DNA of 52,301 nucleotides from IMG/VR virus record IMGVR_UViG_3300017658_000249, positions 1 to 52,301 of that record; one strand, written 5' to 3'. The DNA comes from a virus. Taxonomy: Duplodnaviria > Caudoviricetes. This document shows positions 1-21,541 of the stretch, piece after piece (within the stretch, counting starts at the first letter, position 1; the number at the start of each line of letters is the position of its first letter). The notes beneath the pieces were generated by a model. The model saw only the letters and a list, made by a program, of their open reading frames with translations. It did no database searches and was not told the origin of the DNA. Both the position numbers and the translations under genes were made by a program.

Positions 1-164
1 GTGGAATTCCGGAACTGCCCGGCAGCGGTAAGTGGAAACGAACGCCGTCATCAAGCACTGGCTGACATTGAGATGCGTCTCAATCAGGTTGGGAAGCGAT
101 GGCTAGTAGGTGCAGGTGGAACTCCAGGGTTCACCCGCAAGTCCGCAAGTCCGAAGACCTGCCA
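1..164 (+). promoter_or_regulatory. Cobalamin (B12) riboswitch, 5'-truncated by window edge
   Basis: Contains conserved B12-element blocks (AATTCCGGAACTGCCCGGCAGCGGTAA, GCACTG, TGGGAAG, AGTCCGAAGACCTGCC) upstream of a B12-independent RNR. Confidence 0.9.
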
Positions 165-440
165 GCGACTGAGCAAATCGGAGTTCCAGGAGATCGACGG
201 TCGGATACTGTCGGGCCGGTTTGCTTATCTGTCGAACCTTCTCGGGAAAGGTTGGTCGGGGATGTTGCTGGCTTCATTCTGCGCGCTGGACATGGCTTCG
301 GGCCGCTGGTCCGAATTGATCCTCTTGGTCATGTTCTTCGATTCTTGTGCGCACATGGGCTCCTCGATTCACCGCTCCCCTGCTGCGTTGGGCATGTCGC
401 CAGATCCGCATCGGTGAGATGTGGAAGGGAGTTCAGGTTG

Positions 441-3260
<2,820 letters not shown>

Positions 3261-3356
3261 AGAACAGCTTTTCGAAGATCCTCAGCGGATTTCAAAACTT
3301 GTCACAACAAAATGTCAATAATTAAAAAGATCAACAATTAAAAAAGATCGATAATA

Positions 3357-4454
3357 ATGACAATTCTAAATATGTATCCTGATGCAATGAAATCCATCGA
3401 ATCTGAAACATCCTTTACGAATGCTTCCGATGGGATGGCAGGTCGAATTCGTGTTGGCGATAAGCGACTGATCAATTGCCATCAGGTCGATGTGAATCAG
3501 CTGATGCCGCTCAAATATCAATGGGCCTGGGAGCATTATCTGAACGGTTGTGCGAATCACTGGATGCCGACCGAAGTTCCGATGCACAAAGATATTGAAA
3601 CCTGGAAGTCGAGCAAATTAACAGATGATGAACGCCGCGTGATTCTGAGAAACCTCGGGTTCTTTTCTACAGCCGAGAGCCTTGTCGGCAATAATCTCGT
3701 GCTGGCGATTTTCCGGCATGTGACAAACGCGGAATGCCGTCAGTACCTGTTACGCCAGGCTTTTGAAGAAGCAGTCCATTCACACACATTCCTGTATGTG
3801 GTGGAAAGCCTGGGGCTCAACGAAGGGGAAGTCTTTAATATGTATCACGAAGTTCCTGCCATCGCCCGTAAGGACAAACTGGAAATGGAGCTGACGGCTG
3901 AAATCCTCGATACAAATTTCTCGACCGATACGTTTGAGGGAGCCCAGATGTTCCTGAAGAACCTGATTGGTTATTACCTGATCATGGAAGGAATCTTCTT
4001 TTATACCGGGTTCGTGATGGTGCTCTCGTTCCATCGCCGCAATCTGATGACCGGCATCGGCGAGCAGTTTCAGTACATCCTTCGTGATGAAACGATTCAC
4101 CTGAACTTCGGTATTGACCTGATCAACGGCATTCATAACGAAAATCCGGAGTTATGGACGCCGGATTTTCAACAGGCCATGATTGATCGGGTGCGGCAGG
4201 CTGTCGAACTGGAAATTGAATATGCCTGGGACGTTCTGCCGCGTGGCATCCTCGGCCTGAATGCCGACCTGTTCCGCGACTACGTGCAGTTCATCGCGGA
4301 TCGCAGGCTGGAACGGATCGGCCTGCCGACACAATATGGATCGTCGAACCCGTTTCCGTGGATGAGTGAAACGATTGATCTCTCGAAGGAAAAGAATTTC
4401 TTCGAAACCCGCGTCACGGAGTACCAGAGTGCGTCCACGTTGAGTTGGGACTGA
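3357..4454 (+). CDS. nrdB: Ribonucleotide reductase beta subunit, class Ic (R2c) signature
   Basis: Ferritin-like ligand motifs [29 protein letters not shown], and C-terminal [10 protein letters not shown]. Start could be 3372 or 3387. Confidence 0.95.
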
Positions 4455-4480
4455 TCAGGGCTCCAGCAGCTTGTTGAAAA

Positions 4481-4558
4481 TGGCACAGACAGAAATGTCT
4501 GTGCCGCCAGAAGCTTCTGGATCATTAAAGAAGTGGGCCGGACATTTCTGTCTGGCCG
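4481..4558. repeat. REP-like inverted pair of palindromes
   Basis: GGCACAGACAGAAATGTCTGTGCC and the related inverted copy GGCCGGACATTTCTGTCTGGCC lie between convergent genes. Confidence 0.55.
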
Positions 4559-4688
4559 GGATTCCATGGTTTTTCACAGGCGCCTCGTGCCTCGTCTACT
4601 CTAAAATTTGGGGTAGGCCTGAACGCAAAGTCCGACAACGGAGGACGTTTCGCGATCACGCATCCCAAATCCAAGCCCTGACAGGGCT

Positions 4689-5951
4689 CTAGCCGATTTC
4701 CACAACCATGGCGGTTGCATTGTCACGGCCATCCGCAGTCACAGAGGCTTCCACAATGCGCTGCGCGGAGGTCAGCATGCGCTGATCGGGGGTGGGAATC
4801 CGGATCAGGTCTTCCAGTGCATGTTCCCAGAGTCCTTCAGTGACTCCATCCGTGCACAGCAGCAATCGATCACCCGGACCAACTTTGATTTCTCCAATTT
4901 GTGGAACAACATATCGGTTGCCTGCCCCCAGTGCCTGTGACAGCACATTCTTGCGGGGATGATGTCGAGCTTCCCGTTCGTTCAGTTCACCGGCACGACG
5001 TAACCAGCCCACGTGTGTATCATCATGGGAAATCTGTTTCATACCCCCGCCACGAGGCAGATGATAAATCCGGCTGTCCCCGATATGACCAAAGTAAAAC
5101 CGGTCCTGGATGAACCAGACCAGGCTGAGCGTGGCCCCCATATTACGGCCTTCTTCATAGCTGTTGCCGAGGACCGTCAATTGACGATGAATGCCCAGAA
5201 AGAGTTCACGCAAACAATCGCGAATTCCGGCAGACTGATTCTTGAGTTTCAGGCTGAACCGCTGCCCCATCAGACGGGTGATATTATCAATCGCGAATTT
5301 ACTGGCAAACTCGCCGGACCGCTCCCCCCCCATGCCGTCGCTGACAGCAAAGACATAATCGAAATCCGTTAACGGAACTTCTCCATGACTGGCCAGGTAG
5401 ATGAATTCTTCCCGGTTGAAAGCAACTCCCAGAAATTCATCTTCGTTGTTGGCCCGGAACCGTCCGATGTGTCGAAAGCCGGACCAGCTCATGGAGGCCA
5501 GTGCCGGTGTTTCCAGAAACTCATCCAGGTTAATGGGAGCGGTTGCCGGTTCCGGTGATGGAGGAGCCCCGACAGCTGGATCGAGGATCGTAGCGAATTC
5601 AAAATCGATCAGACAAAATCGACCGTCCCGGGCACGATAGGTCACGTTCCTCAGATAGGGATCGTCGTGCCGCACGCCATAGGTTTCCAGTTCTGCGAAA
5701 AGTGCTTTGAGCCTGGCATCGTCCAGTTGATCGACTCTGGCGCCGCAATTGGTCGTCACCAGTTCGAGTTTATCCGGGTCGTAGCTCAGTACGCGGGGAA
5801 CGAAATCGCACTCTCGGCTTTCCAGATATTGCAACACCCGGAGTTCATTTTCAAACCGCTGTTGTGCGTTCTGATGCCGGAAGTATTTATGAACGGTGCC
5901 ATCATAGCCAATTTTGACCATCGCCCGGGCAGTGTTCTTGGCCTCTTCCAT
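4689..5951 (-). CDS. Fusion of a minimal kinase-like domain and a PP2C/PrpC Ser/Thr phosphatase
   Basis: N-terminal part has HKYF, NELRVL, VRHDDPYLRN and LIDFEFA. C-terminal part has RANNED, AVSDGMGG, GHIGDSRIY, LCTDGV and GRDNAT. ATG 5951 follows GAAGGTGAG. Confidence 0.85.
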   Translation of the reverse strand: MEEAKNTARAMVKIGYDGTVHKYFRHQNAQQRFENELRVLQYLESRECDFVPRVLSYDPDKLELVTTNCGARVDQLDDARLKALFAELETYGVRHDDPYLRNVTYRARDGRFCLIDFEFATILDPAVGAPPSPEPATAPINLDEFLETPALASMSWSGFRHIGRFRANNEDEFLGVAFNREEFIYLASHGEVPLTDFDYVFAVSDGMGGERSGEFASKFAIDNITRLMGQRFSLKLKNQSAGIRDCLRELFLGIHRQLTVLGNSYEEGRNMGATLSLVWFIQDRFYFGHIGDSRIYHLPRGGGMKQISHDDTHVGWLRRAGELNEREARHHPRKNVLSQALGAGNRYVVPQIGEIKVGPGDRLLLCTDGVTEGLWEHALEDLIRIPTPDQRMLTSAQRIVEASVTADGRDNATAMVVEIG

Positions 5952-6371
5952 CAACTCACCTTCAAAGATCTGGACCAGGACGCCCGCACACCGGCTGGGC
6001 CGCGTTCCAGGGTGCGGCGAGCAACATTTCACAAGACGAAATTTGCACGGGGGCAGGTCCAGGCGTTCCCGATTCTATCATGCCCATGATCCATCGGGCA
6101 GCGAAACGAGCAATCGTATGAAGAGGCGGGCCTCCATACCCGAAATGGGATCATACTGTCCTTCCACATTTGATCGAGTGGAGAAAAGGGTTCGGAGGTC
6201 AGCAGTCGGAGGTCAGCAGCCTTTTCAGGAGACAGGGAAAAAGCCTGCAAGTCGTTGCGTTTTCTGACCTCTGATCTTCGCCCCCTCTCTTCAACCGGCT
6301 GCGAGCGCATTACTCCCGCATCGACCGCGTTCCACCATGCGGCAGAGCTTTCGTTTTACTGAAAATGGCAT

Positions 6372-6451
6372 GGGAGTGCGAGGCTCCTGTCGAGCCGCAA
6401 ACGAAGGAAAGCATGATCACTTATGCGGCTCAGCAGGAGCTTCGCCTTCTC
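6372..6451. repeat. REP/REPIN-like inverted pair
   Basis: GGGAGTGCGAGGCTCCTGTCGAGCCGCA and the near-complementary TGCGGCTCAGCAGGAGCTTCGCCTTCTC. Confidence 0.6.
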
Positions 6452-6486
6452 GGAAGTTGCCCATTTTGAAACAGGCAAAACCCTGA

Positions 6487-6558
6487 CCACGCGGCGAGTC
6501 GCCTTTCATCAATCGAAACGCGAACGCTGCGCGGGCCAGAGTAACTCAACTTGCTCTA
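6487..6558. repeat. Dispersed ~70-bp intergenic repeat, copy 1
   Basis: CCACGC..CTTTCA.CA.TCGAAACGCG..CGCTGCGCGGGCC..CAACTTGCTCTA is shared with 9635-9705. Confidence 0.65.
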
Positions 6559-7575
6559 AACCTCCGGGACCATGCGGAGCGTCTGGGCCAATCGGGCCAC
6601 AATCATATATGGGTCCGCCTGCGAATTTGGACGGCGATCTTCCAGATAACCTCGATAGGCATCATCTTTGACAAACGCGAGCGGCACCCGCACGGAGGCT
6701 CCCCGATTGGCGACACCATAATTGAACTTGTCAATGGACTGCGTCTCATGCAGGCCGGTCAGTCGCAGATGATTATCTGGACCATAGGCAGCGATGTGTT
6801 CATTCTTATACTTGTCGAATGTTTCCATCAACTTCTCGAAGTAGGCACGTCCCCCTTTTTCTCGCATAAATTTCGTGGAGAAATTTGTGTGCATTCCTGA
6901 GCCGTTCCAGTCTCCCTTGATCGGCTTGCAATGGAATTCGATGTCCAGACCATATTTCTCTGCCAGGCGGAGCAACATGTACCGGGCCACCCACATGTCA
7001 TCGCCAATTTTGCGGGCTCCTTTGGCGAAGACCTGAAATTCCCATTGGCCCTTGGCGACTTCCGCGTTGATTCCTTCCAGATTGATCCCCGCAGCACGAA
7101 CCACGTCGATATGCTCTTCTGCAACGGCTCGGGCAGTATCTCCCATGAATTTGTACCCGACACCGGTATAATACTGCCCTTGTGGAGCAGGATAGCCGGC
7201 GTCCGGAAATCCTAGCGGCTTCCCCTCTCTCCAGAAGAAATATTCCTGTTCCAGGCCGACCCACAGGTCTGGATCGTCTGGGATTCCAGCACGATGATTG
7301 GTGGGATGCGGCTCGCCATTGGGCAGCAACACTTCATTCATCACCAGAAAGCCGTTCTTGCGGGTACAGTCCGGGTAGAACGCCACAGGCTTGAGCAAAC
7401 AGTCCGAACTGTGCCCTTCCGCCTGCATGGTGGAACTGCCATCAAACCCCCACATCGGAAGATCTTCCAGCGATTCCGGGGCCGATTCGACAATCTTCGT
7501 CTTGCTGCGAAGATTGGCCACGGGCTTATAACCGTCCAGCCAAATGTATTCCAACTTATACGTAGGCAAACTCAT
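6556..7575 (-). CDS. glnII: Glutamine synthetase type II
   Basis: LEYIWLDG, LRSKT, WGFDGSST, GLEQEY, PQGQYY, INAEVAKGQWEFQ, DWNGSGMHTNFS, RLTGLHET, NRGASVR and YLEDRRP; about 339 aa, typical of GSII. Confidence 0.95.
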   Translation of the reverse strand: MSLPTYKLEYIWLDGYKPVANLRSKTKIVESAPESLEDLPMWGFDGSSTMQAEGHSSDCLLKPVAFYPDCTRKNGFLVMNEVLLPNGEPHPTNHRAGIPDDPDLWVGLEQEYFFWREGKPLGFPDAGYPAPQGQYYTGVGYKFMGDTARAVAEEHIDVVRAAGINLEGINAEVAKGQWEFQVFAKGARKIGDDMWVARYMLLRLAEKYGLDIEFHCKPIKGDWNGSGMHTNFSTKFMREKGGRAYFEKLMETFDKYKNEHIAAYGPDNHLRLTGLHETQSIDKFNYGVANRGASVRVPLAFVKDDAYRGYLEDRRPNSQADPYMIVARLAQTLRMVPEV

Positions 7576-9921: not shown

Positions 9922-10104
9922 CTCCTGTCCCCGCGAGATTTGCGGTTCAGGGGGAATCAACGGTTCTCGGCGGTCGCCGGCGAGCGCCGTTTTTCTGAGA
10001 AATCGGGTTTCCGGAAGCCAATCTGAGTGTCAATACTTTGTGTGTCAACACTTTGTGAAGTTCCGGCCAATTCAGCGGGCTTCTCCACAGAATTCCTGCG
10101 GTTT

Positions 10105-10178
10105 GGCGGTGTAGCTCAGTCGGTTAGAGCAGCGGAATCATAATCCGCGTGTCGGGGGTTCGAATCCCTCCACCGCTA
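10105..10178 (+). tRNA. tRNA-Met(CAT), elongator type; no encoded CCA
   Basis: Acceptor GGCGGTG/CACCGCT, D arm GCTC/GAGC, anticodon arm GCGGA-ATCATAA-TCCGC, T arm GGGGG-TTCGAAT-CCCTC. Ile2 is not strictly excluded. Confidence 0.95.
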
Positions 10179-10325
10179 TTTTCTTTTTTTTGAGGGCAAA
10201 TGAAACCCCAACTGGAAAAGAACTTATGAGCCGCGAGGTTCGGTCTGAGTGGACCGGATCACGCGGTTCTTGTTGCTTTTCGACTGTCCAATTGTTTCGC
10301 TGTTCGAAATGCCGATGATGGAGGC

Positions 10326-15427: not shown

Positions 15428-15711
15428 TGTGTCAAAAATGCATGCAAGATGCCGTGATGCTTAATGAAATCCTCACGGAAGCGTTGGGGCTCATGATGTT
15501 CACGCAGACGGTGACTGACATAGTTCGTCACCGGGGCAATGCTGAATCCCGCAGGCAGCGAATTCAGGAGATTGCCCACCAGTGGCTGGAGGAGATCCGA
15601 GCTGACGGAACGGCCTACGCGCAGCAGATCGCGGTGAAGCTATTACAGAAGCACGCGGAGTGGACCAGCAAAGAACTGGAGGGCATCACGCTGGCGCCGA
15701 ACCACAACTGA
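15427..15711 (+). CDS. Phage hypothetical protein
   Basis: Coupled start; helical 94-aa ORF. Confidence 0.6.
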   Translation: MCQKCMQDAVMLNEILTEALGLMMFTQTVTDIVRHRGNAESRRQRIQEIAHQWLEEIRADGTAYAQQIAVKLLQKHAEWTSKELEGITLAPNHN

Positions 15712-15981
15712 AAACACTGGGAGCACGGCGTGTGAGATTCGAGAACTCACTGCAATGCGAGGACGCAACTCTCGATGGGAGCTGACGAGATGGAAACCGG
15801 ACCCTGCATACGATCAACAGATCGTCGTCCGAGGGCAGGAGGTACCAATGCTCGGCAGTGATATCACCCTCATCAATGAATGACGCCTCGACGTAGGAAA
15901 GACGGCAACGAAACCTGCTTGGCCCCGTTGAAACGGAATGGGGCATTTTACTAACTCGCGATTAGAAATGAGGTATCGATT

Positions 15982-16152
15982 ACGAAAAGCCTTGGACACA
16001 TTGCTTATGACGCCTATTGCGAAAGCAGCGAAGGCAAGTCGCTTGTCAGTGGGGCGCCGCTGCCGCCATGGAGCGAGCTGAGCAAGCCAATTCGGATTGC
16101 ATGGGAAGCGGCCGCAGCTGCTGTTGCTTCACGATTCGCAAATAACGCCTAA
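15982..16152 (+). CDS. Small phage protein with non-canonical (ACG or ATT) start, or start-mutated gene
   Basis: Frame reads KSLGHIAYDAYCESSEGKSLVSGAPLPPWSELSKPIRIAWEAAA. GAGGT lies 7 nt before ACG and there is an in-frame stop at 15952. Confidence 0.55.
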   Translation, partial: TKSLGHIAYDAYCESSEGKSLVSGAPLPPWSELSKPIRIAWEAAAAAVASRFANNA

Positions 16153-16201
16153 CACATACATCGCCGACTTCCGGCTCCGGTTCAAAGCAACCGGGCATTT
16201 T

Positions 16202-16337
16202 GGTCCCGTAGCTCAGTTGGTTAGAGCGGGGTTTGTCAGAGTCGGAGGATGCGGGTTCGAGTCCCGCCCCAATTTGGGTAGCTCAATTGGCCGAGCCCGA
16301 CAAACCCAGGTCGCTGGTTCGAATCCAGCCGGGACCA
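16202..16337 (+). ncRNA. Double tRNA-like RNA: two cloverleaf bodies joined through anticodon stems
   Basis: Two D arms and two T arms; outer acceptor GGTCCCG/CGGGACC; inner hairpin CCCA-ATT-TGGG; cross-pairs GGGTTT/AAACCC and GTCGG/CCGAC. Confidence 0.8.
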
Positions 16338-16385
16338 CTGAAGAGTTAGCACTGAACTTAACTATCCAGGAGAAGGAGAGCATTG

Positions 16386-16595
16386 ATGCTCGTTTTGAGT
16401 CGCAAGACAAACGAATCCGTGCTGATTGGCGATGGCATCGAAGTCATCGTGATCGGAATTCAAGGCAACCGTGTCCGGCTCGGATTCATTGCGCCGGAAT
16501 CGCTCAAGATTAATCGAAAGGAGGTCTGGCTTCAGCTTGCGGATGACGCAGCCCGCGACGAGTCGCTTGAACTGTCCGATGCATCTGCTGCATGA
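16386..16595 (+). CDS. csrA: Carbon storage regulator CsrA/RsmA homologue
   Basis: MLVLSRKTNESVLIGDGIEVIVIGIQGNRVRLGFIAPESLKINRKEV. Confidence 0.93.
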   Translation: MLVLSRKTNESVLIGDGIEVIVIGIQGNRVRLGFIAPESLKINRKEVWLQLADDAARDESLELSDASAA

Positions 16596-17956
16596 ATGGA
16601 GTCGGCACGATGCCACCGAAAGAGAAGAGTCCGTGGTTGCTTAAGCTGGAACTTATCAAGAGTCTCTCGCTTGTGGCGATCGCGGATGAAATCAATACAC
16701 GCCGACTGTCGGCGCTGAATGATTTGCTGGCCGATACGACCCGGATCAAGCGAGCGTCCCAGGATCGGCGTAAACGAGAGGGGGGAGGTGATCAATATGG
16801 GCGACTGCTCAAACTGGTGGAACAGCAGGGATGGCCGCTCTATCAACTCCCCTCTGACATGCGCGCAGACGCAAACCGGATGAAGCGTTACCTGATCGCT
16901 CTGCATTCCCGGCTGGGAAATCAACGATGCAGACAACTCAGCGATGAAGAGATTGCGGAGGAGATGTGCGTATCGCCGCGGACGGCGAGACGCGGTGCCC
17001 AGGATTGCCGCGAAGCCTTCCTAGTCGATGTTGCCGAGCACAACCGCGCTCCGGCCAGCGGAGGGGGAAGGGATCTCAATGGCTTTATGATCGTTTGGCC
17101 GACACTCGCAGACCTCGCCGAAGGTCCACGAGTGCAAAGCCTGTTCGAACCGTCGCTGCCGGCCGAGATGACCCAGCGCGACGAACGGATTTTGCAACCG
17201 GAGAATCCGGTTCGACCATTCGATGATTTTGGCCACAGTGGCGAAACGCATGGCCACAGTGGCGAAACGCATGGCCACAGTGGCGAAACGCATGGCCACA
17301 GTGGCCTCGTGCGTAATACCGCGCGTGCGCCATCTCCTCTTTCTCTTTCAAATCTAAATACATCTTCTTCTTTGCATTTGCCTCCTCGAACTTCCAGGAG
17401 GAAGGACAAGGAAGAGGAGGATTTGATTTTTTTGAGGAACACAGAATGGAAATTGGCCTATGAAGCATTGAAAACATATCCGGTCGGTGACTCAGCCCGG
17501 GCAATCCGGAGTGCACGCTTGCTCGGCTGGACGGCAGAACAAGTGCTTGAATTTATCGCGGAATGCAAGGCCAAGGTGATCAACGGACGGCGAGCCTGGG
17601 AACCTGGTCAGGTGTGGTGGCAACTCAAGAACGGTTCTCCAGGGAGTCGCATTTCGATGCAGCCATCCGAGCTGTATCGTCGCGAAAAACGAAACCATGA
17701 AATTGCCCTGGAACGGAAACGGCGGGAAGCAAAAGCAGCGGAGGAGACAGCGCCACGTCAGAAGTCCAGTGAAATCGATCCACGCATCGCAGAACAGTTT
17801 GAAGCGATGCTGCCTGATCAGATCGCCGAACTCGCCACCGCGGCCGGTCCGTATGTCGCGAAATACTATCGCAACCACGGCCTGACAACGGTGATCCGCC
17901 AGGTCCTGCTGGACCAGCTCCAGAGAAACTCACTCTCGATGGAGGCGGAGCCATGA
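16592..17956 (+). CDS. Putative phage replication initiator (HTH, internal iterons)
   Basis: HTH LSDEEIAEEMCVSPRTARR, internal tandem repeats and an AT-rich tract; lambda O-like layout. Confidence 0.7.
   Translation: MNGVGTMPPKEKSPWLLKLELIKSLSLVAIADEINTRRLSALNDLLADTTRIKRASQDRRKREGGGDQYGRLLKLVEQQGWPLYQLPSDMRADANRMKRYLIALHSRLGNQRCRQLSDEEIAEEMCVSPRTARRGAQDCREAFLVDVAEHNRAPASGGGRDLNGFMIVWPTLADLAEGPRVQSLFEPSLPAEMTQRDERILQPENPVRPFDDFGHSGETHGHSGETHGHSGETHGHSGLVRNTARAPSPLSLSNLNTSSSLHLPPRTSRRKDKEEEDLIFLRNTEWKLAYEALKTYPVGDSARAIRSARLLGWTAEQVLEFIAECKAKVINGRRAWEPGQVWWQLKNGSPGSRISMQPSELYRREKRNHEIALERKRREAKAAEETAPRQKSSEIDPRIAEQFEAMLPDQIAELATAAGPYVAKYYRNHGLTTVIRQVLLDQLQRNSLSMEAEP
17230..17305 (+). repeat. 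About 3.6 x 21-bp tandem repeat (candidate iterons/ori)
   Basis: TGGCCACAGTGGCGAAACGCA x3 plus 13 bp; each unit has the dyad GCCAC-A-GTGGC. Confidence 0.9.
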
Positions 17957-18132
17957 AGCTGCGCACGGGGTTCTACCGGCACTGTGGTTGTCCGCGAACG
18001 TTCAACCAGCGGGAATCGGTGCGAAACGGTGTGGCGCATCCTTACCTGGAGTGTCGCACCTGTGCCCGCCACCAGACAGATCGGAAGCGAAAACCGTTTG
18101 TGAAACTGACACAGAGGATGCTGTTTCAGTGA
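17953..18132 (+). CDS. Small Cys-containing (Zn-ribbon-like) protein, 59 aa
   Basis: ATGA overlap with the initiator; HCGC and CRTC motifs; below the ORF-track cutoff. Confidence 0.55.
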   Translation: MKLRTGFYRHCGCPRTFNQRESVRNGVAHPYLECRTCARHQTDRKRKPFVKLTQRMLFQ

Positions 18133-18143
18133 AAGGATCAAGG

Positions 18144-19226
18144 ATGGCGACGTGCAAGCAAATGGAGGCGTCCGCGAAAGATGTCTGGAAACGCTATTGG
18201 AAAACACGAGCTGTTGCAGACCGCAATGCGCTGGTGGAAATCTATCGTCCGCTCCTGGCCGTCTGGGCACGCAAAATCAATCTGCCCGATTGGGCAGAAC
18301 TTGATCAGGACGATCTGCAGTCGGCCGGCTGTTTTGGTCTCATCGATGCGATCGGTTCGTTCAAGCCCTCTCGCGGAACGGCATTCTCATCGTTCTGCGG
18401 CCTGCGGATTCGTGGCGCAATGTTGGACCACGTGCGGCACATGGACTGGGTCCCGCGGCAAGTGCGGCAGCTGCAAAAACGCGGAGAAGCTGAACCCGTG
18501 CGACTCATTCGCCTGCAGCAGTTGCAAGCAAACCGAGAGGATGAAACAGACAGAGAAATGGAGATTGCAGATCCGCGCATCCCGTCGCCAAGTCAGAGAA
18601 TGGAGAATGAATCCTGGTGGCAGGAGATGCTGCAGCATTGCAACCAACGTGATCGTCTCATGCTCCTTCTGCTGTACAAAGAAGGTCTCAACATGCGTCA
18701 GGTCGGCTTGCAATTGCAGATCTCAGAGTCCCGTGTCAGCCAGCTGCACAGCATGCTCCTCGCCCAGGCCCGGACGCGGATCCAGACATCCGATGCAAGC
18801 AATTCCTCTTGCCCTTCACCACCACAACAACACTGGAATCATCTCATGAACAAAAAATCTGCCATCACGCTGCCGGCAACAATCCTGCCCAGCGCCGAAT
18901 CTCCTGATGAGCTGTCTATCGCAACATTTCTGCAACAGCTGAACAGGAATGAAGTCCAGAAACGGATTGAACATCACCGCCGGGAGTTGGCGGCCTGGCA
19001 AGAGTTGTTGCTGGTCGTTCAGATCAGGGAGAGCGAAGGATCAGCACGAACCAGGCGGCGGGACACGCCCAATCGGATTGAACAACTGCTTAAGGACAAA
19101 GGAGGAATGCGTCCCAAAGAAATTGCAGACAAGCTGGGACTCTCGGCGGCGAATGTGCATGCATGCCTGAAACGAAACGTGGATCGCTTTTCTAAAACAT
19201 CTGAAGGGTTGTGGGAAGTGGGATGA
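18144..19226 (+). CDS. FliA/WhiG-like sigma factor with C-terminal winged-HTH extension
   Basis: Region 2 DDLQSAGCFGLIDAI..RIRGAMLDHVRHMDWVPR; region 4 LLYKEGLNMRQVGLQLQISESRVSQLHS; extra HTH MRPKEIADKLGLSAANVHACL. Confidence 0.88.
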   Translation: MATCKQMEASAKDVWKRYWKTRAVADRNALVEIYRPLLAVWARKINLPDWAELDQDDLQSAGCFGLIDAIGSFKPSRGTAFSSFCGLRIRGAMLDHVRHMDWVPRQVRQLQKRGEAEPVRLIRLQQLQANREDETDREMEIADPRIPSPSQRMENESWWQEMLQHCNQRDRLMLLLLYKEGLNMRQVGLQLQISESRVSQLHSMLLAQARTRIQTSDASNSSCPSPPQQHWNHLMNKKSAITLPATILPSAESPDELSIATFLQQLNRNEVQKRIEHHRRELAAWQELLLVVQIRESEGSARTRRRDTPNRIEQLLKDKGGMRPKEIADKLGLSAANVHACLKRNVDRFSKTSEGLWEVG

Positions 19227-19564
19227 TCATCGATGGGGTAATCGAACTCGATGACGAAGAGTTTGAAGATCACCGGCCTGAGCTGGTGGACCTGGCTCGC
19301 GACTATTGGCAGAGGATCGTCAGAGGTCATCCCGAACGAATCGATCTAATGATCGAACTATTGGCTGCAGCCAATGACTTGTGCGGCCTGCAGTTGACTG
19401 ATCCGGAAGAGGAGTGGGACGCTGCTTATCGAGAATTGCGGCGAGCTCACTGGCTCGTCCGAAGTCGGGACGGCCAGGAACGGGGTGATTACTTTTTCAA
19501 CGTGCAATTCCGCGCCGCAATTGCACGTTGGGAGAAACACATCGCGGCGGCAGACACGGAGTGA
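19223..19564 (+). CDS. Phage hypothetical protein
   Basis: ATGA-coupled to the sigma gene. Confidence 0.65.
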   Translation: MIIDGVIELDDEEFEDHRPELVDLARDYWQRIVRGHPERIDLMIELLAAANDLCGLQLTDPEEEWDAAYRELRRAHWLVRSRDGQERGDYFFNVQFRAAIARWEKHIAAADTE

Positions 19565-19567
19565 ACA

Positions 19568-21541
19568 ATGACAACAGCAACGACATCAGCCCGGCGATCA
19601 CGCAAGAAATCAGCTACCGATTCGCAGACGATCACGCTGCGGATTGAACCGCGCTTGCGGGTCACGGGATTCGTGATGATCCAGCAGTCCGGAAGCAAAT
19701 GGGGCACGGCTTATGATGTTCGCGACGCCAAGACGAAGATGTCCTTTTGCCTGGAATTCACTTCCGAAAGCTATGACTTTGCCACGGAAGCGGAAGCCAT
19801 CCAGGAGGCATTCACGACATTACTGGACTGGTGTGATGACATCATCGAAGAGCATCCCGCGGAGACCGTCCGGATCATGGAGGTCAAGCAGGCACTGACG
19901 ACGCACCGGCTGCAGTTCCCCACGTCTGATGCAGTTGCTGCCGAGGCGTCTCCTGCGGGAGCGCTGAAACATGTCGAAACGATCAGCGTCAATCCGGAGA
20001 CCGTGCGGGATCATCCGCACCAGCCGCGTGTCAGCTATGCCGGCATCGTGCAACTGGCGGAATCAATGGCCAGTGTCGGACAATTGGATGATGCCTGGGG
20101 CCGCCGGCTGCCGGACGGTTCCATCGAGCTGATCCGCGGCCATCGCCGCAAGAGGGCGGCGATCTTCAAAGGGCTGGACCTGCGGGTCCGGATTGTGGAC
20201 TGCAGCGATGCCCAGGCTCTGGAGTTGATCGGCGTCGATGATGCGAACTGGCATGAGTTTGATGCTGTAGCCAAGGCTCGGTGGTACCGGTCGATGCTGG
20301 ACGAACTGCAGATTACGCAGCGGGAACTGGCCACACGGATCGGACGCAGCCAGGCGGATATCGCCAACCATGTGGGAATCTTGTCGCTGCCGGAAGACTG
20401 GCAACAGAAGGTGATCACGCAAGAAATCACCGCGACGATGGCCCGGGCGATTGCTCCCTGGTCCGGCCGGCGGGCGGTGCTCAAGAAAATGGAAGAGGCT
20501 CTGGCGGAGTGGAAGGAGAACGACGACGAGCCCACGTCGAAAGATTGGGAGCATCGTCTCCGTCATGTCGTGCGAGAGTTGACGCTCCCCTGTGATCTTG
20601 ACGTCTATTTCAGCGGCAATTATGGGCCCAACGGCAAATGGATGTCCGGAGACTGCCGACTGTCCGTAGATGACATCGAGGCGCATCGTACGGAACTCGA
20701 CATGGTCGAAGTTCCTTCCCGTTGGAAAGACGATCCCCCCGAACTCCGGGCGTTCAACATATCGCTCTGGCTCAAGCTGCAGGGCGCAGCGGCCGCTCGT
20801 CATGAGCAGCAGGCCACATCCGGTTCAACAAGTCGAAAGAAGTCCGCGGCTTCGAAGGCGGACACATCTCCAGAGCAACAAGCTGCCCAGGAAAAGGAGA
20901 AACGCCAGCAGCAGGCTAAGCAACTCAAAGAGAAGATTTTCCGTTATCAGATGCGGTGGTATCAGCAACGGATTATCGAAGTTCTCATCCAGGAAGAACA
21001 GTCCGATGCGCCGCAACATCGTGAGGTGCTGCAACGCCTGGTGTTGTACTGTTTCATCGGGAACGGTCCCGGTGAGGATGTGGCTCAGGCGGTGAGGGAT
21101 CAGTTGCCGAAGTCTCGCGGCGGAAGCTGGACTTGCAATCAGGCATGGAAGTTCCTCGAACAGGCGACCGATGCCCTGGCGCTCTCCCGCGCCATTACCG
21201 GCACGATCCGGCGGTGGCTGGCGCATGACCTGTTTGCCAGCTATTTCCATCTGGTTCCAGGAGAGATGCCGGCGATTGCCGAATCTTTGGGAGTCAGCTT
21301 CGAAACGGAATGGCGGATCGATGAAGAATTTCTTGAGCTGCACACGAAAGATCAACTGAACGCATTGTGCAACGACTGGAAGATTGCCGCAAAGATCCCC
21401 ATTGCCCGGGCCGCCCTCGGCAAACGCGCCGATCTGATTCAAGCCATCCTCATCGAAGACAAAGACTCTGGACCGCAGTTGCCATTGCCGAAATGCTTTG
21501 CCGGTAAATCCAAGGCCAAGGCCAGAAAGGGGGCGAAATGA
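19568..21541 (+). CDS. ParB/Spo0J-family protein with long extensions
   Basis: HPHQPR, LAESMASVGQL, ELIRGHRRKRAA and HTH TQRELATRIGRSQADIANHVGIL. Confidence 0.88.
   Translation: MTTATTSARRSRKKSATDSQTITLRIEPRLRVTGFVMIQQSGSKWGTAYDVRDAKTKMSFCLEFTSESYDFATEAEAIQEAFTTLLDWCDDIIEEHPAETVRIMEVKQALTTHRLQFPTSDAVAAEASPAGALKHVETISVNPETVRDHPHQPRVSYAGIVQLAESMASVGQLDDAWGRRLPDGSIELIRGHRRKRAAIFKGLDLRVRIVDCSDAQALELIGVDDANWHEFDAVAKARWYRSMLDELQITQRELATRIGRSQADIANHVGILSLPEDWQQKVITQEITATMARAIAPWSGRRAVLKKMEEALAEWKENDDEPTSKDWEHRLRHVVRELTLPCDLDVYFSGNYGPNGKWMSGDCRLSVDDIEAHRTELDMVEVPSRWKDDPPELRAFNISLWLKLQGAAAARHEQQATSGSTSRKKSAASKADTSPEQQAAQEKEKRQQQAKQLKEKIFRYQMRWYQQRIIEVLIQEEQSDAPQHREVLQRLVLYCFIGNGPGEDVAQAVRDQLPKSRGGSWTCNQAWKFLEQATDALALSRAITGTIRRWLAHDLFASYFHLVPGEMPAIAESLGVSFETEWRIDEEFLELHTKDQLNALCNDWKIAAKIPIARAALGKRADLIQAILIEDKDSGPQLPLPKCFAGKSKAKARKGAK

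What the first reader, a model, noticed from the sequence alone, without database searches (positions are those of the whole stretch)
16202..16337. Anticodon-less double tRNA: a tRNA carrying a circularly permuted tRNA in place of its anticodon loop
Seen: the sequence parses as GGTCCCG-TA-[D: GCTC AGTTGGTTA GAGC]-G-GGGTTT-GTCAGA-GTCGG-AGGAT-[T: GCGGG TTCGAGT CCCGC]-CCCA ATT TGGG-TA-[D: GCTC AATTGGCC GAGC]-CCGAC-AAACCC-AGGTC-[T: GCTGG TTCGAAT CCAGC]-CGGGACC-A. Read as two tandem tRNAs, neither acceptor nor anticodon stem pairs. Read crosswise, every helix is Watson-Crick: outer acceptor 7 bp, GGGTTT/AAACCC, GTCGG/CCGAC, and an inner acceptor capped as a 4-bp hairpin. The result is two elbows (GG D-loops, TTCGA T-loops), one open acceptor end, no anticodon loop and a 6-nt bulge that can slip (GTCAGA or AGAGTC). 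Perfect cross-pairing argues against simple decay. Inference: a functional tRNA mimic, for example a decoy for tRNA-targeting defence or elbow-binding factors, or an RNase P processing element for the csrA-replication mRNA 48 nt downstream. I do not know a described family like this.
Basis: partly seen in the sequence, partly recalled or inferred. Interest (0 to 1): 0.9.

Follow-up and report, generated by a model that had tools for sequence, protein, structure and literature searches.

The report
Nested double tRNA-like phage RNA
A rare RNA gene carried by prophages folds as a tRNA whose anticodon loop is replaced by a second, circularly permuted tRNA-like module; the design is conserved with compensatory changes but fits no described family, and its function is unknown.

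Summary
ARAGORN and Rfam (gathering scores) call nothing there. The inner part (T arm, closed hairpin, D arm) matches the tRNA-like domain of the bacterial Y RNA YrlA (32.8 bits; gathering score 69).

I found seven more copies of the same nested design: five in other viral contigs and two in Kitasatospora prophages. On the 8-sequence alignment 92.5% of pair cells are paired (shuffles 73%, slid controls 35-46%), and 22 of 40 pairs change on both sides. That includes 6 of 7 pairs of the "crosswise" outer acceptor stem. The tertiary 15:48 pair also fits only the crosswise reading.

Five of the seven relatives lie inside phage tRNA gene clusters. None of the six viral records searched holds Ro60 or RtcB. 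It is therefore not a YrlA family member and not two decayed tRNAs.

Most likely it is a non-decoding tRNA mimic that is processed like a tRNA. No expression data exist, and its target (decoy, tether or repair cofactor) is inferred only.

The parts
16176..16201 (+). Terminator-like hairpin (16176-16195) and T-run ending 1 nt before the element's first base
   Evidence: Consensus scan, (3 terminator-like sites in 1.1 kb; shuffles give 1.1 +/- 1.3). Whether it terminates is not shown.
16202..16208 (+). Outer acceptor stem, 5' strand (pairs with 16330-16336)
   Evidence: In the 8-sequence alignment 6 of 7 pairs change on both sides and 96.4% of cells are paired; 95.9% on the MAFFT alignment, which was not fitted to the structure.
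16211..16227 (+). D arm 1 (4-bp stem, 9-nt loop with GG)
   Evidence: Invariant stem in 8 of 8. tRNA model alignment.
16229..16234 (+). Outer 'anticodon' stem, 5' strand (pairs with 16302-16307)
   Evidence: An anchored stem of 3-9 contiguous pairs is present in 7 of 7 sequences tested (per-sequence p 0.008-0.1). The registers differ between members, so the column counts (64.6%) understate it.
16235..16240 (+). 6-nt bulge; can slip because GTC occurs twice
   Evidence: L736 has a similar duplicated inner-strand motif (read).
16241..16245 (+). Inner stem, 5' strand (pairs with 16297-16301)
   Evidence: 86.8% of cells are paired on the model-fitted alignment, but only 59.4% on MAFFT. Anchored test p 0.05-0.49 per sequence. 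This is the weakest helix.
16246..16250 (+). Variable loop 1 (its last base U pairs in tertiary fashion with A15 of D arm 2)
16251..16267 (+). T arm 1 (5-bp stem, TTCGAGT loop)
   Evidence: 100% paired; 2 of 5 pairs covary.
16268..16278 (+). Closed 'inner acceptor' hairpin (4 bp, 3-nt loop)
   Evidence: aligned to the closed stem of the YrlA model. 100% paired in 8 of 8, and 2 of 4 pairs covary.
16281..16296 (+). D arm 2 (4-bp stem, 8-nt loop with GG)
16297..16307 (+). 3' strands of the inner stem (16297-16301) and the outer stem (16302-16307)
16308..16312 (+). Variable loop 2 (its last base C pairs with G15 of D arm 1)
16313..16329 (+). T arm 2 (5-bp stem, TTCGAAT loop)
16330..16337 (+). Outer acceptor 3' strand and discriminator A; no encoded CCA
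16386..16595 (+). csrA homologue, 48 nt downstream. It is a neighbour; no functional link is shown.
   Evidence: Pfam CsrA E = 1.1e-20.

Best explanation
**What it is.** It is a gene for a small, stable, non-decoding tRNA-like RNA carried by temperate phages. The outer part is a complete tRNA body: a 7-bp acceptor stem with free ends, D arm 1 and T arm 2. Where the anticodon loop should be, its 'anticodon' stem runs on into a second, smaller L-shaped module (T arm 1, a closed 4-5-bp stem-loop, D arm 2). This inner module has the same permuted order as the tRNA-like domain of YrlA Y RNAs. The result is two tRNA elbows joined stem to stem, one open acceptor end and no anticodon.

**How it probably works (inferred steps).**
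- It is transcribed together with its neighbours, which in five of the seven relatives are tRNA genes.
- It is cut out by RNase P and the 3' tRNA-processing enzymes, and it receives CCA.
- It then acts by shape: as a two-headed tRNA mimic it occupies or bridges proteins that recognise the tRNA elbow or acceptor end. Candidates are tRNA-targeting defence nucleases, modification or repair enzymes, or the partners of YrlA / b7a-tRNA in RtcB-type RNA repair.

**How it probably arose.** It likely came from a tandem tRNA pair by a 'domain-swapped' pairing of the two anticodon arms.

**What is shown and what is not.** The fold and its conservation are shown. Processing and target are not.
For: **Fold in the window**
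- 40 of 40 Watson-Crick pairs.
- MFE z = -3.33.

**Relatives**
- Seven more loci have the same nested order: L103, L150, L371, L033, L051, L566, L736.
- L736 was not used to build model R2, yet it scores 99 bits, E = 3e-20.

**Covariation, 8 sequences**
- 92.5% of 318 cells are paired, against 73.2% in shuffles (0 of 500 reach it) and 35-46% when partners are slid.
- 22 of 40 pairs change on both sides.
- In the outer acceptor stem, 6 of 7 pairs do so.
- The MAFFT alignment, which was not fitted to the structure, still gives 87.3% paired and 19 such pairs.

**Tertiary 15:48 pair**
- The crosswise assignment gives G:C or A:U in 8 of 8.
- In the two informative cases (the window and L051) the tandem reading would give G:U and A:C.

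**Outer 'anticodon' stem**
- It is present at the anchored place in 7 of 7 tested.

**Inner module**
- It aligns to YrlA model positions 27-81.
- That domain was shown by crystal structure to fold like tRNA (Wang et al. 2018, passages).

**Genomic context**
- In L150, L371 and L103 the RNA lies between tRNA-Leu(CAG) and tRNA-Pro(UGG) on the same strand.
- In L051 it lies between tRNA-Asp and tRNA-Asn.
- In L736 it lies about 100 nt before a tRNA-Thr.

**Breadth**
- It is found in prophages of two phyla: a Pirellulaceae-like host flank and Kitasatospora.
Against: - There are no expression data: no RNA run holds the stretch. Transcript ends, CCA addition and stability are therefore all inferred.
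- The family is small and rare: 8 loci after pattern scans of 2.9 million viral contigs and 185,579 species genomes. With 8 related sequences the shuffle control can overstate significance.
- The inner stem is weakly supported: 59.4% paired on MAFFT and anchored p 0.05-0.49.
- In L033 and L051 the 5' linker can alternatively fold on itself into a 5-bp stem with a 7-nt loop.
- D loop 2 of the window ends in CC where the relatives have A.
- No protein partner is conserved next to it.
- The six viral records hold no TROVE/Ro60 (window and three others searched) and no RtcB.
- In the window a terminator-like hairpin sits directly upstream and no sigma-70-like promoter was found.
Confidence: 0.5

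Rival explanations
1. A neutral relic. A tandem tRNA duplication lost both anticodon loops and the junction between the two genes. The crosswise pairing is then only the automatic complementarity of two copies of one tRNA, and the locus has no function of its own.
For: - The linker after D arm 1 is 17 nt in the window, the length of an anticodon arm.
- In L033 and L051 this linker can still fold into a 5-bp stem with a 7-nt loop.
- The family is very rare: 0 of 151 Pirellulaceae genomes and 2 of 151 Streptomycetaceae genomes, both already known from the pattern scans.
- Partial tRNA duplicates at prophage ends are common.
Against: - The two halves of one element are not copies of each other. 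The stems of T1 and T2 and the D loops differ.
- The outer acceptor, the outer stem and the closed hairpin keep pairing through changes on both sides, across sequences that share only about 73% column identity.
- The same short closed hairpin (4-5 bp; a UUCG loop in 4 of 8) and the same spacing recur in prophages of two phyla.
- The 15:48 partners co-vary crosswise.
Confidence: 0.15
2. A cis-acting processing or punctuation element. RNase P and 3' processing at the tRNA-like body cut a polycistronic transcript, here releasing the csrA-operon mRNA with a defined 5' end. The excised RNA itself would be a by-product.
For: - The element sits between a terminator-like hairpin and csrA, 48 nt upstream of its start.
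- No promoter-like site was found nearby.
- The outer module has the 7-bp acceptor plus T arm that RNase P needs. This requirement is established knowledge and is also stated for M. smegmatis YrlA in Chen et al. 2014 (passage).
Against: - A single tRNA-like body would be enough for punctuation. The conserved inner module, closed hairpin and second elbow are then unexplained.
- None of the seven relatives was seen next to a csrA (no dedicated csrA search). Five lie among tRNA genes, which already provide processing sites.
Confidence: 0.1
3. A chargeable tRNA-like RNA. After CCA addition the outer acceptor is aminoacylated by a synthetase that ignores the anticodon (as AlaRS charges tmRNA). The charged RNA then serves a non-ribosomal or ribosome-interfering purpose.
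For: - It has an open 7-bp acceptor with an unpaired discriminator in 7 of 8; in L103 the first pair is A opposite C, leaving 6 bp.
- G3:U70 is present in 3 of 8 (L371, L033, L051). L033 and L051 also have discriminator A, which is the alanine identity set (recalled knowledge).
Against: - The window has U3:A70, three members have G3:C70 and one has C3:G70, so no single identity element is conserved.
- G:U pairs are frequent throughout these acceptor stems (8 of 56 cells), so three at position 3 may be chance.
Confidence: 0.08
4. A true YrlA-type Y RNA that binds Ro60 (Rsr) of the host.
For: - The inner module matches the YrlA model (32.8 bits, E = 2e-5).
- YrlA genes occur in phages (Chen et al. 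2014, passages).
- The Kitasatospora hosts have TROVE-domain ORFs elsewhere in their genomes.
Against: - The score is far below the gathering score of 69.
- There is no GNCGAA motif in the element or within 500 nt upstream.
- There is no TROVE gene in the window or in 3 of 3 other viral records searched.
- In the closest Pirellulaceae genome searched (G006) TROVE was not found.
- The 5' and 3' ends form a tRNA acceptor stem, not a Ro-binding helix.
Confidence: 0.05
5. An assembly artefact: a chimera of two tRNA genes made by the metagenome assembler.
For: - The D and T arms are repeated within the element and shared with many tRNAs of the same sample. Short contigs break inside it.
Against: - A 7110-nt contig spans the stretch laid (15700-17200), and so the whole element, with 0 differences in each of two runs (these may be the source sample).
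- A second sample gives identical contigs that join each half of the element to its unique flank.
- The same design occurs in two isolate Kitasatospora genome assemblies and in five other viral contigs.
Confidence: 0.02

Closest known systems
YrlA (Y RNA-like A, Rfam RF02553), the tRNA-like effector domain of bacterial and phage Y RNAs
   Same: - The module order is the same permuted one: variable loop, T arm, closed 'acceptor' stem-loop, D arm, closed by a stem in the place of the anticodon stem. Window 16247-16296 aligns to model positions 27-81.
- There is no anticodon loop.
- It also occurs in phages (Chen et al. 2014, passages).
- That module folds as an L like tRNA (Wang et al. 2018, passages).
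   Different: - In YrlA the stem leads to the RNA's 5' and 3' ends, with a GNCGAA motif for Ro60. Here it leads into a complete second tRNA body with an open acceptor end.
- There is no GNCGAA motif.
- There is no Ro60 gene nearby.
- The score is below threshold.
- The closed stem is 4-5 bp, against 6 bp or more in YrlA.
b7a-tRNA: predicted tRNA-like RNAs beside Band-7 and RtcB genes (Burroughs and Aravind 2016, known to me only through the passage in Wang et al. 2018)
   Same: - They are non-decoding tRNA look-alikes with canonical D and T arms.
- The loci I met in passing fit this description. In Pseudomonas L254, two tandem tRNA-likes with a tetraloop in place of the anticodon loop lie between rtcR and Band-7/rtcB. 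In Bacteroidota L133, an array of T-hairpin-D modules lies next to Band-7 and rtcB.
   Different: - Those units are tandem, not nested.
- They are chromosomal and operon-linked to RtcB.
- The window and the five other viral records hold no RtcB, and the window holds no Band-7.
Canonical tRNA (RF00005) and tandem tRNA genes
   Same: - Acceptor stem of 7 bp, U8, D loop with GG, T loop TTCRANY, a 4-5-nt variable loop and a 15:48 pair. Each of these occurs twice, except the open acceptor, which occurs once.
- Five of the seven relatives lie in tRNA clusters.
   Different: - There is no anticodon arm.
- The two halves do not fold as separate cloverleaves: ARAGORN finds none, and Rfam gives 28.8 and 22.2 bits.
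- The 5' end pairs with the far 3' end.
Phage T4 species 1 and 2 RNAs (rnaC, rnaD): stable RNAs of unknown function in the T4 tRNA cluster
   Same: - They are phage-encoded and sit at the end of a tRNA cluster.
- They are of similar size (139 and 119 nt as annotated).
- The 3' part of rnaC has a T arm and an acceptor-like stem.
   Different: - They have no second D or T arm and no nested module.
- Model R2 gives rnaC only 16.4 bits, over the acceptor and T arm alone.
tmRNA (including permuted tmRNA)
   Same: It is a tRNA-like RNA with an open acceptor end and no anticodon. Three relatives carry the G3:U70 pair that tmRNA uses for alanylation (the tmRNA fact is recalled).
   Different: There is no mRNA-like reading frame and no pseudoknots. 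The best hit here is tmRNA_permuted at 9.6 bits.

Membership tests
tRNA (RF00005) | 7-bp acceptor stem formed by the 5' and 3' ends, plus an unpaired discriminator | tested here: met
   16202-16208 pairs with 16330-16336, and A16337 is unpaired. The stem covaries in 6 of 7 pairs.
tRNA (RF00005) | D arm and T arm with the conserved loop letters (GG; TTCRA) | tested here: met
   Two of each are present.
tRNA (RF00005) | Anticodon arm: 5-bp stem with a 7-nt loop | tested here: not met
   There is no such hairpin. The linker pairs with the distal strand instead. ARAGORN finds no gene here.
tRNA (RF00005) | Rfam gathering score of 29 bits | tested here: not met
   28.8 bits (partial, model positions 7-64) and 22.2 bits. 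Nothing is found at gathering scores.
YrlA (RF02553) | tRNA-like domain in the order T arm, closed stem-loop, D arm | tested here: met
   16247-16296 aligns to model positions 27-81, 32.8 bits, E = 2e-5.
YrlA (RF02553) | Rfam gathering score of 69 bits over the whole model | tested here: not met
   32.8 bits over 55 of 114 model positions.
YrlA (RF02553) | GNCGAAN0-1G motif near the 5' end (Chen et al. 2014, passage) | tested here: not met
   There is no GNCGAA on either strand between L001 positions 1000 and 2416, which is window 15701-17117.
YrlA (RF02553) | Encoded within about 4 kb of a Ro60/TROVE gene on the same strand (Chen et al. 2014, passage) | tested here: not met
   No TROVE match in the 52-kb window at E <= 1, and 0 of 3 other viral records. 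The provirus is estimated to be 66% complete, so a Ro60 gene elsewhere in the phage is not excluded.
YrlA (RF02553) | Binds Ro60 (Rsr) | not testable with these tools
   This needs immunoprecipitation.
b7a-tRNA | Encoded next to a Band-7 (SPFH) protein gene and RtcB | tested here: not met
   No RtcB and no Band_7 match in the window. No RtcB in 5 of 5 other viral records.
tmRNA | tRNA-like domain plus a tag reading frame and pseudoknots | tested here: not met
   ARAGORN, which also seeks tmRNA, finds none. Rfam gives only tmRNA_permuted at 9.6 bits.
Nested double tRNA-like RNA (family proposed here) | Order: acceptor 5' strand, D arm, linker, T arm, closed hairpin, D arm, linker, T arm, acceptor 3' strand. 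The ends are paired and the two linkers are paired. | tested here: met
   8 of 8 loci fit. Model R2 scores them 99-133 bits. Ordinary tRNAs and tandem tRNA pairs in the same and other searches scored at most 95 bits.

The most novel reading that the evidence does not exclude
A new class of phage-encoded RNA effector: a covalent head-to-head 'tRNA dimer' with two elbows and one free acceptor end. During infection it would either capture or bridge host tRNA-recognising machinery. One possibility is that it jams an oligomeric tRNA-targeting defence nuclease that grips the elbow or acceptor. Another is that it recruits the host's RtcB/YrlA-type RNA-repair system to mend cleaved tRNAs. Either way it would be an RNA anti-defence factor built from tRNA parts, and an evolutionary bridge between tandem tRNAs and the permuted YrlA module.
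Probability: 0.2. Interest if true: 0.85.

Novelty: new variant of a known kind. Interest (0 to 1): 0.62.

Why it matters
**Relation to known tRNA mimics.** Known tRNA mimics (tmRNA, YrlA, viral 3' tRNA-like structures, the predicted b7a-tRNAs) each imitate one tRNA. This RNA joins two tRNA-shaped bodies through their 'anticodon' stems in one 136-140-nt chain. The design is kept by compensatory changes in prophages of two bacterial phyla.

**If it is expressed, it offers three things.**
- A natural two-elbow scaffold with which to find proteins that read tRNA shape.
- A possible RNA-based counter-measure to the many anti-phage systems that cut tRNAs.
- A plausible route by which the circularly permuted YrlA module arose: a domain-swapped tandem tRNA pair.

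**A practical point for annotation.** Gene finders for tRNA skip the element completely, so such genes go unannotated inside phage tRNA clusters.

Tried and rejected
**Close relatives of the window's phage.** The search for related loci with the 454-aa neighbour found none in IMG/VR.

**Cultured phages.** blastn of the window element, L150 and L051 against 50,697 phage records gave only partial hits to ordinary tRNA genes, with 0 records covering 80% or more.

**Pattern scans.**
- The strict four-module patterns gave 3 and 0 stretches in genome contigs.
- They gave 3 and 0 stretches in viral contigs.
- Of the long R2 matches in those loci I inspected 21. Twenty were a tRNA plus a partial duplicate (prophage att sites) or tandem tRNAs, and one was L566.
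- The scans were cut off, so more members may exist.

**Host relatives.**
- In 151 Pirellulaceae genomes, 7 matches at E <= 1e-11 were all ordinary tandem tRNAs. Six were tRNA-Gly/tRNA-Thr pairs, and one was a pair next to RtcB.
- In 151 Streptomycetaceae genomes, 109 had matches at E <= 1e-13. Only the two known Kitasatospora loci were 136 nt long and above 130 bits.
- The other Streptomycetaceae matches (147-200 nt, 78-95 bits) I did not inspect one by one. I take them for tandem tRNAs by analogy.

**L096/L110.** This element in a 33-tRNA phage cluster has the outer acceptor and both T arms, but an odd D arm 1 and no convincing linker pairing. I left it out of all counts as a doubtful variant.

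**T4 rnaC/rnaD.** They do not have the same fold.

**Protein-coding reading.** The ORFs that overlap the element (16097-16513 on +, 16213-16410 on -) match no Pfam family at E <= 0.1.

**Conserved protein neighbour.** None was found among the loci beyond ordinary phage genes: serine integrase, HNH, terminase subunits and portal.

**Expression.** No RNA holder was listed. The 'joints' are ordinary tRNAs of other organisms aligning to D arm 1 and T arm 2, not spliced forms of this element.

**Duplex energies of the two linkers.** Compared with shuffles they are only modestly low (z from -0.1 to -2.6). Energy alone does not establish the linker helices.

**Papers, and what I saw of each.**
- Chen et al. 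2014: passages.
- Wang et al. 2018 preprint: passages.
- Wang J. et al. 2026 preprint: outline and abstract only.
- Hughes et al. 2020 and Kotta-Loizou et al. 2022: search listing only.
- Burroughs and Aravind 2016: not seen.
- Supplements are closed. Supplemental Fig. S1 and Tables S1-S2 of Chen et al. 2014, which list YrlA variants including phage ones, could hold a similar RNA that I could not see.
- Full-text searches listed no paper whose title or abstract describes a nested or double tRNA-like RNA. I did not open most of them.
Full report
**What is in the window.** The window is an IMG/VR provirus record of 52,301 bases.
- Its first 10 kb are host genes: a cobalamin riboswitch, both subunits of class I ribonucleotide reductase, and others.
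- A tRNA-Met lies at 10104-10179.
- The rest is phage: tape-measure-like protein, lambda-type portal, and a large terminase.
- The reductase small subunit is 90% identical to that of an uncultured Pirellulaceae genome.

**The observation.** From the sequence, positions 16202-16337 parse exactly as the finding says.
- There are 40 Watson-Crick pairs in eight helices.
- The 5' end (16202-16208) pairs with the far 3' end (16330-16336), followed by an unpaired A.
- D arm 1 is followed by a 6-bp stem (16229-16234 with 16302-16307), a 6-nt bulge, and a 5-bp stem (16241-16245 with 16297-16301).
- Inside lie a variable loop, T arm 1, a closed 4-bp hairpin with a 3-nt loop, and D arm 2.
- After the returning strands come variable loop 2 and T arm 2.
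- ARAGORN calls nothing here, and Rfam at gathering scores calls nothing either.
- The tRNA model reaches only 28.8 and 22.2 bits on the two halves, against a threshold of 29.
- RNAfold gives -61.4 kcal/mol, z = -3.33, with 0 of 200 shuffles as low. Its MFE misfolds the D arms and uses the slipped register.
- csrA (Pfam E = 1.1e-20) starts 48 nt downstream.

The best Rfam hit under an E-value threshold is YrlA, the bacterial Y RNA with a tRNA-like domain. It scores 32.8 bits, E = 2e-5, over 16247-16296, which is model positions 27-81. That stretch is the permuted module: T arm, closed stem-loop, D arm. Chen et al. 2014 defined YrlA by three features (passages):
- this module;
- a GNCGAA motif near the 5' end;
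- a position within about 4 kb of a Ro60 gene.

Wang et al. 2018 showed by crystal structure that the module, closed by a stem in the place of the anticodon stem, folds like tRNA (passages). The inner half of the element is therefore a known kind of module. The new part is that its closing stem leads not to the RNA's ends but into a complete second tRNA body.

**Relatives.** I scanned the collections with IUPAC patterns built from the D-arm and T-arm consensus. I screened the roughly 600 loci fetched with scripts and with two covariance models. R1 was built from the window alone; R2 was built from seven members. Seven further loci have the same nested order:
- L103, L033, L051, L566 and L736 (viral contigs);
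- L150 and L371 (two Kitasatospora genomes).

L736 was found last and was not used to build R2. It scores 99 bits, E = 3e-20. The eight members score 99-133 bits. Ordinary tRNAs and tandem tRNA pairs scored at most 95 bits in all R2 searches.

The family is rare.
- The strict four-module patterns found 3 stretches in genome contigs: the two Kitasatospora loci and one Lachnoclostridium array.
- They found 3 stretches in viral contigs.
- 0 of 151 Pirellulaceae genomes hold one.
- 2 of 151 Streptomycetaceae genomes do, both already known.
- No cultured phage record matches over its full length.

**Is the crosswise fold conserved?**
- *Model-fitted alignment of 8 sequences.* 92.5% of 318 cells form standard pairs, against 73.2% in shuffles (0 of 500 reach it) and 35-46% when the partners are slid by 1-3 columns. 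Twenty-two of 40 pairs change on both sides.
- *Outer acceptor stem.* This is the helix that only exists in the crosswise reading. It is 96.4% paired, and 6 of 7 pairs change on both sides.
- *MAFFT alignment of 7 sequences, not fitted to any structure.* 87.3% paired, 19 pairs with change on both sides, and the acceptor stem 95.9% paired.
- *The two linker helices.* They score lower in column counts (64.6% and 86.8%; 54.8% and 59.4%). Members differ in register: variable loop 2 is 4 or 5 nt, and there are 0-2 unpaired bases after D arm 2.
- *Anchored per-sequence test.* The outer stem has 3-9 contiguous pairs at the expected place in 7 of 7 sequences (p 0.008-0.1 each). The inner stem has 4-5 pairs, but p is only 0.05-0.49. 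The inner stem is the weakest part of the model.
- *Alternative fold.* In L033 and L051 the 5' linker could instead fold on itself.
- *Tertiary evidence.* Pairing base 15 of D loop 1 with the last base of variable loop 2, and base 15 of D loop 2 with the last base of variable loop 1, gives G:C or A:U in 8 of 8. In the two informative members the tandem reading would give G:U and A:C. The window is G:C outside and A:U inside; L051 is the reverse.
- *Caveat.* Eight related sequences are few, and the tool warns that relatedness alone can beat the shuffles. The slid controls and the held-out member speak against that here.

**Context.**
- In L150, L371 and L103 the RNA lies between tRNA-Leu(CAG) and tRNA-Pro(UGG) on the same strand.
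- In L051 it lies between tRNA-Asp and tRNA-Asn.
- In L736 a tRNA-Thr follows about 100 nt later.
- L103, L150 and L371 are related prophages. L033 and L051 share the large terminase with L103, and L033 also shares the portal.
- In these phages the tRNA cluster lies between a serine integrase and the HNH / small terminase / large terminase / portal block.
- L033 ends 90 nt upstream of the element. L566 shows no tRNA in the 5 kb held.
- In the window the element stands alone between a terminator-like hairpin (16176-16195 plus a T-run) and csrA.
- No protein gene is a shared neighbour of all members.
- TROVE/Ro60 was not found in the window or in 3 of 3 other viral records searched. The two Kitasatospora genomes have TROVE-domain ORFs on other contigs.
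- RtcB is absent from all six viral records, and Band-7 is absent from the window.
- There is no GNCGAA motif in or near the element.
- The element therefore fails three of the defining tests for YrlA.

**Mis-assembly.**
- One 7110-nt contig in each of two runs of the probable source sample spans the stretch laid (15700-17200), and so the whole element, without a difference.
- In a second sample, identical contigs join 15954-16245 and 16285-16660 to their unique flanks, though none crosses the middle.
- The same design occurs in isolate genome assemblies, so an artefact is very unlikely.
- No RNA run holds the stretch, so expression is untested.

**What it most likely is and does.**
- *Shown:* a conserved, covarying, nested two-module tRNA-like fold with one open acceptor end, carried by temperate phages, often among their tRNA genes.
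- *Inferred from established knowledge of tRNA maturation:* the outer module has the 7-bp acceptor plus T arm and elbow that RNase P and the 3' processing and CCA-adding enzymes recognise. An RNA embedded in a tRNA cluster should therefore be excised and matured like its neighbours. Chen et al. report such cleavage and CCA addition for the M. smegmatis YrlA with a 7-bp stem (passage).
- *Inferred by analogy:* it cannot decode, so it should act by shape, as a two-elbow mimic that occupies or bridges tRNA-recognising proteins.
- *The analogy:* YrlA joins a tRNA-like module to a protein-binding module and is thought to tether partners. YrlA and the predicted b7a-tRNAs are proposed cofactors of RtcB repair (Wang et al. 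2018 discussion).
- *Host genomes:* all five searched (three Pirellulaceae-like, two Kitasatospora) have RtcB.
- *Limit:* I cannot say which protein is the target.
- *Confidence:* about 0.85 that this is a real structured-RNA family with this fold, about 0.6 for tRNA-like processing, and about 0.3-0.35 for the decoy or tether mechanism.

**Origin.**
- The 5' linker of the window is 17 nt, the length of an anticodon arm.
- In L033 and L051 the two linkers face each other across an internal loop of 7 by 5-6 nt.
- In a tandem pair of like tRNAs, the 5' strand of the first anticodon stem is complementary to the 3' strand of the second, and vice versa. The first 3' acceptor strand is likewise complementary to the second 5' acceptor strand.
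- A domain-swapped fold of such a pair, followed by trimming of the loops, gives exactly this architecture, and also gives the permuted YrlA-type module. This is inference.

**Novelty.**
- No Rfam family reaches its threshold.
- Five full-text searches listed no paper whose title or abstract describes a nested or double tRNA-like RNA.
- The supplements of Chen et al. 2014 could not be read.
- I rate it a new variant of a known kind (tRNA-mimicking non-coding RNAs of the YrlA / b7a-tRNA type) rather than categorically new.

Noticed in passing
L254:5119-5261 (+) (Pseudomonas peli); similar pairs in L240, L273, L293, L304, L322, L352, L355: Two tandem tRNA-like genes in which a tetraloop (UCCG or UUCG) caps the anticodon stem in place of the anticodon loop. 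In L254 they lie between rtcR (3228-4838, -) and a Band-7 gene (5507-6652) followed by rtcB (7075 onward). This fits the predicted 'b7a-tRNA' mentioned by Wang et al. 2018.
   Followed up: partly
L133 about 6760-7000 (-), and about 100 other Bacteroidota loci (L119-L238); related forms in Acidovorax and other Betaproteobacteria (for example L135): Arrays of two or more T arm / closed hairpin / D arm modules in tandem, following a conserved 5' domain (roughly CAGUGCAG...CUGUAUGCUG). In L133 the array is followed by a Band-7 gene and rtcB on the same strand. ARAGORN calls nothing, and Rfam gives only one weak tRNA hit. TROVE was found in 2 of 5 such genomes, on other contigs. Whether multi-module arrays are described in print I could not check.
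   Followed up: partly
L686:1500-1670 (-), which is G006:C40:46173-46342, in the Pirellulaceae genome closest to the window's host: Two tandem tRNA genes begin 97 nt after the stop of an rtcB gene (G006:C40:46439-47773, -) on the same strand. ARAGORN calls them tRNA-Ser(ACU) and tRNA-Pro(UGG); both have 3-nt variable loops. They could be RtcB-associated tRNA-likes rather than decoding tRNAs.
   Followed up: no
L022:2782-2908 (-) and L025:1955-2384 (+) (viral contigs): A tRNA-Lys is followed by repeated T arm / hairpin / D arm modules. In L025 a tmRNA-model hit follows (57.8 bits, with most of the model deleted).
   Followed up: no
L523:1308-1443 (+) (viral contig): A tRNA-Asn is followed at once by a mini tRNA-like with acceptor, D arm and T arm but no anticodon arm at all.
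   Followed up: no
Acceptor pair 3:70 of L371, L033 and L051: G:U at the third acceptor pair occurs in 3 of 8 nested RNAs, with discriminator A in L033 and L051. This is the alanine identity set used by tmRNA (recalled). The window has U:A there.
   Followed up: partly
window 16235-16245 and L736:498-636 (5' linker): In both, the 5' strand of the inner stem is present twice (GTC...GTC in the window; GTCGC-A-GTCGT in L736). Two pairing registers are therefore possible, so the junction may be bistable. With only two cases this may be chance.
   Followed up: partly
window 16243-16251: The inner stem's last bases, variable loop 1 and the first T-stem base read GGAGGAUG. This resembles the GGA-containing CsrA binding consensus (recalled), and a csrA gene follows 48 nt after the element. 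The csrA leader (16360-16385) is also GGA-rich. The seven relatives were not seen beside a csrA gene.
   Followed up: no
window 16386-21541: The prophage carries its own csrA, then an unknown 454-aa gene with no Pfam or PHROG match and no relative in IMG/VR by pattern search, then a sigma-70-like factor with extra HTH domains and a ParB-like protein.
   Followed up: partly
window 1-180 and 99-4454: A cobalamin riboswitch (54.7 bits, cut by the window's start) lies directly upstream of the large and small subunits of class I ribonucleotide reductase.
   Followed up: no
window 10104-10179: tRNA-Met lies at the border between host genes and phage genes and is probably the integration site of the provirus. 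No repeat of its 3' half was looked for.
   Followed up: no
L456, L441, L444, L472, L427, L483, L478 and others: Many metagenome hits are a tRNA followed within 10-40 nt by a copy of its own 3' half. These are the usual footprint of prophage or island integration.
   Followed up: no
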